A model generated the notes under the pieces. That model searched no databases. It was given only the letters and a program-made list of their open reading frames with translations, and was not told where the DNA came from. The translations under genes were made by a program, and so were the position numbers. Below, piece by piece: positions 278 through 62,139 of a stretch of 64,000 nucleotides of DNA; the stretch's first letter is position 1; every line of letters begins with the position of its first letter. The stretch comes from Octopus vulgaris (Eukaryota): assembly GCA_951406725.2 (NCBI GenBank), contig OX597842.1, positions 11,470,001 through 11,534,000 of the forward strand, given 5' to 3'.

Positions 278-495
278 CTTTATTTTAAGCAGCAGAAAAT
301 TCAACGAAATCTGTTACTCTGAGTTTCTCGTTGCCGTTCATCAGACAGTTTTTGCTAGCAAAAACTGTCTGATGAACGATGAGAAACTCAGAGTAACAGA
401 TTTTGTTGAATTTTCTGCTGCTTAAAATAAAGCATATTACTCTACCACTGGTATTTGAGTACTCTTTTTTCCACCTTGTTTCACATTTATGTGTT

Positions 496-499
<4 letters not shown>
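273..499. mobile_element. Palindromic hammerhead-containing element (Penelope-like terminus) in (TA)n
   Basis: Spacerless inverted repeat 273-356/357-437 centred on GCTAGC. Each arm carries ctgt-CTGATGA-..-GAAA-ctcagag-TA-acag. Confidence 0.8.
311..348 (-). ncRNA. Minimal type I hammerhead ribozyme motif
   Basis: Reverse complement reads ctgt CTGATGA acg-gcaa-cga GAAA ctcagag TA acag: stem I ctgt/acag, short stem II with GCAA loop, stem III actc/gagt, GUA cleavage triplet. Confidence 0.75.
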
Positions 500-60346: not shown

Positions 60347-61622
60347 GGATCTTTTCGGTTTGAACGGCAGTTTTTACATAATTCGTAGGTAACTAAAACA
60401 TTTTAAACTTCGTATGCTGGTAGAATGTGTTTATAAAACATCTTTTTCTCTTGGCTTTATTGAGAAAATTCTATAGTTTGTAAGATGTTTGTGGGTTTTT
60501 CCTTCAATTTCTGCAATTTCAACCAATCAATGACGTCCATTGAGGTAAAAAATATTCTGTCAGTATGAATATGTCCCTCTTTTAAGAAACCGACTGGGTT
60601 TATTTACGTTTGTGAAGAAAAAAAGATACCCTTCGCCCCACCCCTAACCCTAACCCTAAAACAGATTGAAATGCAATAGATCGATACTAGGGTCATAATA
60701 ATGGGTGACAATTTCATATGACACCGCTAGAAAAATCTGCCGTTCAAACCGAAAAGATAAAAATAAATAAACCAGAGTAAAAATCACGAAGCCAAGGGAA
60801 TCAGTGGTGGTGGTCTATGTTGGAACAATCCGTTTTCTCCAGCAGTCGGTAATTTGGTAGCGTTTATTTATAGCGATGAAGCTAGAATATATTGCTTTTT
60901 GCTTTTCAGTCGCCTCCTCATCAATGGGTTTTTCCTTCAATTTCTGCAATTTCAACCAATCAATGACGTCCATTGAGGTAAAAAATATTCTGTGCCGTAT
61001 GAATATGTCCCTCGTTTAAGAAACAGATTGGGTTTATTTACGTTTGTGAAGAAAAAAAGATACCCTTCCCCCCACCCCTAACCCTAACCCTAAAACAGAT
61101 TGAAATGCAATAGATCGATACTAGGGTCATAATTATGGGTGACAATTTCATATGACACCGCTAGAAAAATCTGCCGTTCAAACCGAAAAGATAAAAATAA
61201 ATAAACCAGAGTAGAAATCACGAAGCCAAGGGTATCAGTGGTGGTGGTCTATGTTGGAACAATCCGTTTTCTCCAGCAGTCGGTAATTTGGCAGCGTTTA
61301 TTTATAGTGAGGAAGCTAGAATATATTGCTTTTTGCTTTTCACTCGCCTCCCCGTCAGTGGGTTTTTCCTTCAATTTCTGCAATTTCAACCAATCAATGA
61401 CGTCCATTGAGGTAAAAAATATTCTGTGCCGTATGAATATGTCCCCCGTTTAAGAAACAGATTGGGTTTATTTACGTTTGTGAAAGAAAAAGAGATACCT
61501 TTCCCCCCACCCTAACCCTAAAACAGATTGAAATGCAATAGATCGATACTAGGGTCATATTTATGGGTGACAATTTCATATGACACCGCTAGAAAAAACT
61601 GCTGTTCAAACCGAAAAGATCC
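60347..61622. mobile_element. Unclassified TIR element with a ~430-bp internal tandem x3 and (CCCTAA)2-3 motifs
   Basis: TIRs ggatcttttcggtttgaacggcagttttt / aaaaactgctgttcaaaccgaaaagatcc; TAAAT on both flanks (putative 5-bp TSD). Confidence 0.8.
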
Positions 61623-61963: not shown

Positions 61964-62012
<49 letters not shown>

Positions 62013-62015
<3 letters not shown>

Positions 62016-62065
62016 CTTCCTGAAGATTTCATCTGAATGAAACAGTTCTAGACCTGTAGAAGCTC
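62013..62065 (+). ncRNA. Stand-alone type I hammerhead ribozyme motif in (TA)n
   Basis: gagcttc CTGAAGA tttc-atct-gaat GAAA cag-ttctagac-ctg TA gaagctc: 7-bp perfect stem I, 4-bp stem III, GUA site. Confidence 0.85.
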
Positions 62066-62069
62066 CTTC

Positions 62070-62139
<70 letters not shown>

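What the first reader, a model, noticed from the sequence alone, without database searches (positions are those of the whole stretch)
62013..62065. A naked 53-nt hammerhead as the entire insert in a TA tract
Between two pure TA runs there is essentially nothing but the ribozyme. Stem I is 7 bp and perfect, and stem III has a real loop that is also near-palindromic, so it could fold as monomer or dimer. The pair closing stem II is U-U rather than the usual G-C, which may lower activity.
Basis: partly seen in the sequence, partly recalled or inferred. Interest (0 to 1): 0.7.

Follow-up and report, generated by a model that had tools for sequence, protein, structure and literature searches.

The report
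Hammerhead stub of a Penelope retroelement
This 63-base insert in a TA repeat is one of thousands of related scraps of a Penelope-type jumping gene in this genome; it carries a hammerhead ribozyme motif predicted to cut poorly, and is likely a copy of the capped front end of the element's RNA rather than a free-standing ribozyme.

Summary
The hammerhead motif is real, but it is not a lone ribozyme. It is a short end-piece of a Hydra-clade Penelope-like retroelement. The genome holds 345 exact matches to its 32-base core and 8,592 to a 20-base family anchor. Longer copies link the motif to an RT plus GIY-YIG reading frame. The insert is 63 bases (62013-62075), including 10 bases of tail. Cleavage is untested, and the catalytic fold is predicted at 0.5%. 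One further observation: 5' ends pile up at the hammerhead's first base, 29 bases after a TATA box, often with one extra G (48 of 86 bare starts). This likely marks a capped transcription start, so such stubs would be complete copies of the RNA's front end. No RNA data confirm it. The scan noted similar Penelope stubs elsewhere in this genome.

The parts
61967..62012 (.). Left (TA)n run, the insertion target
   Evidence: 96 of 100 family arms are followed by (TA)4 or more
62013..62013 (+). Extra G at the 5' junction, not in the element; likely copied from the RNA cap; supplies the 7th pair of stem I
   Evidence: native base is C or T; G in 48 of 86 bare starts (hand count)
62014..62064 (+). 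Native type I hammerhead motif of the element's pseudo-LTR (6-bp stem I, CUGAAGA, U-U plus 3-bp stem II, GAAA, 4-bp stem III with 8-nt loop); 62014 is the inferred transcription start
   Evidence: 345 exact core matches
62058..62059 (+). Predicted self-cleavage site (after GUA), untested
   Evidence: sequence layout; hammerhead consensus as described in PMC4209133
62052..62052 (+). Near-private T-to-A substitution that lengthens the loop III palindrome to six bases
   Evidence: 2 of 161 copies
62057..62071 (+). Hairpin over the cleavage site predicted to compete with stem I (0.6-0.99 in native RNA, 0.12 in this copy)
62065..62075 (+). Element sequence after the ribozyme, ending near the upstream ('short') of the family's two 3' ends (here +62; modal +67/68)
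62076..62135 (.). Right (TA)n run

Best explanation
The insert is the hammerhead-bearing end-piece of a Hydra-clade Penelope-like retroelement sitting in a TA repeat, likely made when the element's reverse transcriptase started about 65 bases inside a capped transcript and copied it back to the cap. Shown: family membership, link to an RT plus GIY-YIG frame, two fixed 3' ends, TA targets, pile-up of 5' ends at the hammerhead's first base, extra G there. Inferred: the endonuclease nicks (TA)n on both strands; each nick primes cDNA at one of two internal sites (+67 and +137) on uncut RNA; RNA made from the pseudo-LTR promoter begins at +1, so the cDNA ends there with a cap-templated base. The two cDNAs usually join head to head; here only the short arm was fixed, or the partner was lost. 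The TATA box is left behind, so the copy is likely a promoterless dead end. The ribozyme is predicted to be weak alone and would need a second copy or the element's protein.
For: Family: 345 and 8,592 exact matches, controls 0. Parent: frame upstream of the motif in L077; motif plus tail running straight into the frame's start in L106, L107, L112; Hydra motifs RWR/RWK, DKT, CxCX5C, CxxC, CxH. Two 3' ends: 30 of 30 head-to-head pairs among the first 100 anchor matches are one long plus one short arm, as expected from two internal initiation sites (PMC11167929). Start site: 26 arms carry a TATA-type box, all with a 22-base spacer across 7 spacer variants. Of 100 arms, 46 end at +2 to +39, 19 of the 54 left end at +1, 9 end at -1 to -16 and 26 run past -90. 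Extra G: 48 of 86 bare starts at +1; 14 of 17 at +1 against 2 of 46 at +3 to +25 (hand count of the first 100 of 298; Fisher p 2e-9). An extra G marks capped full-length L1 insertions (PMC11702581).
Against: No RNA evidence for the start site or cap. Stem I can fold back in the cDNA and would also add this G; 30 of 38 GG-starts carry the whole inverted tail, which fits fold-back. The self-complementary four bases at +1 could attract junctions on their own; 19 arms at +1 come from about 14 insertions, since palindromic joints count twice. Arms with the TATA box were selected by that box (spacer 20-23 allowed), and two more have spacer deletions. The 100 arms are from 29 Mb of one contig and include a few duplicates. 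The second family in the window shows no fixed TATA box. Drosophila Penelope has a TATA-less promoter. Pfam does not recognise the parent protein, and no tree was built. Stems show no compensatory changes.
Confidence: 0.75

Rival explanations
1. Same element, but +1 is a template-switch hot spot and not a start site: once the cDNA completes stem I it folds back or anneals through the four-base palindrome, and the G is the first base of fold-back extension.
For: Fold-back predicts exactly this base. 30 of 38 GG-starts show the full inverted tail. Perfectly palindromic joints are common. Palindromic joints were read as self-priming in rotifer Penelopes (PMC3846280).
Against: One-base additions (48) far outnumber two- to four-base ones (at most 8 of 38 rows). 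A TATA box sits at the usual distance with fixed spacing. Bare G starts need no partner arm.
Confidence: 0.18
2. An autonomous minimal ribozyme or retrozyme-like RNA that cuts itself, circularises and is reinserted as a unit.
For: Complete core and all three stems; 48 copies start with the same junction base; animal retrozymes derive from PLE pseudo-LTRs (bioRxiv 10.64898/2026.07.22.740005).
Against: No tandem array here. A unit cut at the site would be permuted around it, but these copies span it intact. Only about 10 of 55 listed matches are bare starts at the cut site, and these fit TA microhomology (hand count). Identical-start copies belong to different subfamilies and have either 3' end (10 short, 9 long among 19 G starts in 30 loci), so they arose separately from the parent.
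Confidence: 0.03
3. A longer insertion later trimmed to the hammerhead by TA slippage or deletion, or kept for a host function.
For: The 3' end is 5 bases shorter than modal, so some erosion is possible.
Against: The 5' junction is the commonest single bare junction in the genome sample (14 of 100), which trimming would not repeat. One substitution from its subfamily is no sign of special conservation.
Confidence: 0.04

Closest known systems
Hydra clade of Penelope-like elements (Craig et al. 2021, PMC8557442), e.g. Hydra-1_Obim
   Same: C-terminal GIY-YIG, RWK-type, DKT and CxCX5C motifs, no CCHH, (TA)n target, type I hammerhead near the 3' end, often with U opposite U at stem II.
   Different: A different family: the listed Hydra-1_Obim hammerhead is unlike this one. 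Loop III here is 8 nt against 1-3 nt in the listed Hydra motifs. The 3' region holds over 1 kb of simple repeats in L077.
Solo and opposite-strand minimal hammerheads of truncated PLEs (Cervera and de la Pena 2014, PMC4209133)
   Same: Dispersed single motifs and close pairs on opposite strands; palindromic helix III; low predicted activity.
   Different: No G10.1-C11.1 pair; stem III is a true 4 bp plus loop. The paper calls such motifs truncated; here many look complete to a start site.
PAc Poseidon element of the green anole (Frangieh et al. 2024, PMC11167929)
   Same: Two internal initiation sites defining a tail, both strands primed, AT-rich target, uncut RNA used, protein-assisted hammerhead.
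   Different: Other clade; the two ends here are about 70 bases apart; the reading frame starts after the tail and not inside the ribozyme.
Non-LTR retrozymes
   Same: Type I hammerhead, non-coding, PLE-derived.
   Different: Not tandem, not unit-length between cut sites.

Membership tests
Type I hammerhead ribozyme | CUGANGA, GAAA and UH core with three helices, helix I open | tested here: met
   N7 varies A/U and loop II varies while stems stay fixed
Type I hammerhead ribozyme | G10.1-C11.1 closing pair | tested here: not met
   U-U in 160 of 161 copies; same in 14 of 26 published Hydra rows
Type I hammerhead ribozyme | Covariation in stems or Rfam model match | tested here: inconclusive
   no compensatory changes within the family; no hammerhead model hit
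Type I hammerhead ribozyme | Self-cleavage | not testable with these tools
   catalytic fold predicted at 0.5% of the ensemble
Endonuclease-positive PLE | Single frame with RT and C-terminal GIY-YIG linked to the motif | tested here: met
   587-residue open frame in L111 with YRDD and YIG; one homologue named GIY-YIG by its source; no Pfam match
Endonuclease-positive PLE | Partial tandem pseudo-LTR, inverted 5' copy, optional tail | tested here: met
Hydra clade | RWK, DKT, CxCX5C linker, CxxC and CxH, no CCHH | tested here: met
   RWR (RWK in homologues) and DKT in L106/L107; the rest in alignment A1; definitions
Hydra clade | (TA)n insertion | tested here: met
   96 of 100 arms
Hydra clade | RT phylogeny | not tested
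   no tree built; likeness to the published Hydra-1_Obim protein judged by eye
Non-LTR retrozyme | Tandem hammerhead-bearing units | tested here: not met
   single copy here; 30 of 30 neighbouring pairs examined are head to head

The most novel reading that the evidence does not exclude
The solo hammerheads strewn through animal genomes are, at least in this family, not random truncations but complete reverse transcripts of the capped front end of Penelope RNA. The promoter starts the RNA at the ribozyme's first base and the enzyme primes 67 or 137 bases downstream, so promoter-made RNA can only yield ribozyme stubs, and gene-bearing copies need read-through RNA from an upstream copy. The cap-derived G even adds a pair to stem I and is predicted to flip the stub from the masking hairpin towards the ribozyme fold.
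Probability: 0.55. Interest if true: 0.5.

Novelty: new member of a known kind. Interest (0 to 1): 0.3.

Why it matters
The locus itself is ordinary: one of thousands of Penelope stubs. The family's junctions matter more. They give genomic support, in a second clade, for two-site, two-strand internal priming shown in vitro for one lizard element. They also suggest a testable reason why Penelope elements scatter bare hammerheads and need tandem copies to spread. I found no paper stating the start-site and cap reading in six full-text searches; that library lacks most subscription journals.

Tried and rejected
Rfam at both thresholds: no hammerhead model. The 779-residue frame in L061 looked like the parent but is a nested, different element with its own ends; rejected. 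Naiad and Nematis were considered; domain order and motifs fit Hydra. Pfam and PDB gave no useful match for the parent. RNA search: no RNA holder listed on record, contigs only, so no start, end or strand could be read. One search's end-mapping had an offset error and was redone; only its spacer and 3'-class counts are used. A search for copies beginning at the cut site showed no clear excess and is confounded by TA microhomology. Four family motifs were not found in the held supplement text of PMC8557442; line breaks and cuts make this weak. Look-up of earlier findings by sequence was empty. Supplements of the bioRxiv preprint were not seen.

Full report
Observation. On its own it is barely beyond chance: fold z-score -1.4, core pattern matched as often in 17 of 100 shuffles, no Rfam hammerhead hit. 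The predicted lowest-energy fold pairs part of the GAAA core; the catalytic fold is put at 0.5%.

Copies. The genome (2.8 Gb; likely an octopus, from a 92% match over a quarter of the parent protein to one labelled Octopus vulgaris) holds 345 exact matches to the 32-base core and 8,592 to a 20-base anchor, with 0 for reversed controls. These are arms, not insertions. Among 161 full motifs collected from fetched loci (a set enriched for the window's subfamily), position 7 and loops II and III vary while the stems are nearly fixed; there are no compensatory changes. The window's copy differs from its subfamily by one base, at 62052.

Parent element. In L077 an RT and GIY-YIG frame, broken by frameshifts, lies upstream of the motif, separated by a simple-repeat-rich region. 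In L106, L107 and L112 the motif and tail run directly into the start of the frame, the partial tandem typical of Penelope-like elements. L111 has 587 open codons. The protein shows the features given for the Hydra clade: RWR/RWK, DKT, a CxCX5C linker, CxxC and CxH, no CCHH, and TA targets (definitions in passages of PMC8557442). No tree was built. The paper's supplement lists another octopus Hydra family with a different hammerhead, and U opposite U at stem II in 14 of 26 Hydra rows (parts 2 and 53 of 59 and search hits seen; hand count).

3' ends. Among the first 100 anchor matches on contig C1, arms end either near +67 or at +137, counting the first base of stem I as +1; 96 are followed by TA runs, and 30 of 30 head-to-head pairs join one short and one long arm. 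This matches the two internal initiation sites and two-strand priming shown for the anole element, where uncut RNA was the template and the ribozyme needed protein (PMC11167929, parts 1-2 of 4 read). The window's copy is a short arm ending at +62.

5' ends. Of the same 100 arms, 46 end inside +2 to +39, 19 of the remaining 54 end at +1, 9 end at -1 to -16 and 26 run past -90. The 19 come from about 14 insertions. Twenty-six arms carry a TATA-type box 29 bases before +1, all with a 22-base spacer in 7 variants; they were selected by that box, and two more have spacer deletions. Genome-wide, 86 motifs start at +1 after eight A/T bases and one free base: G 48, T 18, C 13, A 7 (hand count), whereas the native base is T or C. 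In a position-free control, a foreign G stood at 14 of 17 direct starts at +1 and 2 of 46 at +3 to +25 (first 100 of 298; the other 37 rows were inverted arms, +2 starts, upstream starts or unclear and were left out; the pattern cannot see clean joins at +1, of which one search shows 11; p 2e-9). Six of the +2 rows also have extra bases, four of them starting with G. An extra G at full-length L1 junctions is ascribed to the cap (passage of PMC11702581).

Reading. Shown: this is a Hydra-type Penelope end-piece with a recurrent junction. Inferred: RNA from the pseudo-LTR promoter starts at +1, is primed internally and is copied to its cap, leaving a promoterless stub. In native RNA a hairpin over the cut site is predicted to beat stem I (0.6-0.99), in this copy not (0.12), which fits use of uncut RNA. 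Only about 10 of 55 matches are bare starts at the cut site.

Against. Fold-back on stem I would add the same G, and 30 of 38 GG-starts carry the whole inverted tail, though short extensions are rare. No RNA ends could be read. A second family in the window shows the same two-ended pattern, with 12 of 30 arms running far upstream and 18 ending in or just before the motif, but no fixed TATA box. Drosophila Penelope has a TATA-less promoter (passages of PMC2377424). A TATA and initiator in a pseudo-LTR, and palindromic joints read as self-priming, were already described in rotifers (passages of PMC3846280).

Known and new. Solo and opposite-strand hammerheads from truncated Penelope elements are known and cut poorly in vitro (PMC4209133, parts 1-2 of 4); retrozymes as PLE derivatives are proposed in a preprint (part 1 of 5). 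Two earlier notes of this scan reached the Penelope-stub reading for other loci in this genome. The locus is a new member of a known kind. The start-site and cap reading is the only part I did not find in print, and it remains inferred.

Noticed in passing
window 279-499: Head-to-head pair of hammerhead arms of a second family in a TA tract, one short and one long arm; 4,340 exact matches to a 23-base anchor. Its motif resembles the published Hydra-2_aMil motif; parent frame not sought.
   Followed up: partly
L061 (G000:C2:117303500-117312500): A different Penelope-like element with a 779-residue frame, CxxCxxC linker and inverted end is nested in the simple-repeat region of this family; its end has a hammerhead-like motif with an altered core.
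   Followed up: partly
window 60492-61620 and from 62135: A 434-base tandem repeat (2.6 copies) containing short telomere-like hexamers is interrupted, and resumes right after the TA tract that holds the insert.
   Followed up: no
L077 4840-6000: The element carries over 1 kb of TA/TG-rich repeat between its frame and the hammerhead, itself a target for nested insertions.
   Followed up: no
family loop III: One subfamily (19 of 161 copies) lengthens the loop palindrome from four to six bases, strengthening the predicted dimer from -12.8 to -15.2 kcal/mol.
   Followed up: partly
window 29751-31043 (+): A 431-codon open frame that looks by eye like a non-LTR retroelement fragment; not scanned.
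   Followed up: no
PMC8557442 supplement, part 53: By eye, TATA-like runs lie roughly 26-37 bases before stem I in three published Hydra consensus sequences but not in Hydra-1_Obim; untested lead for generality.
   Followed up: no
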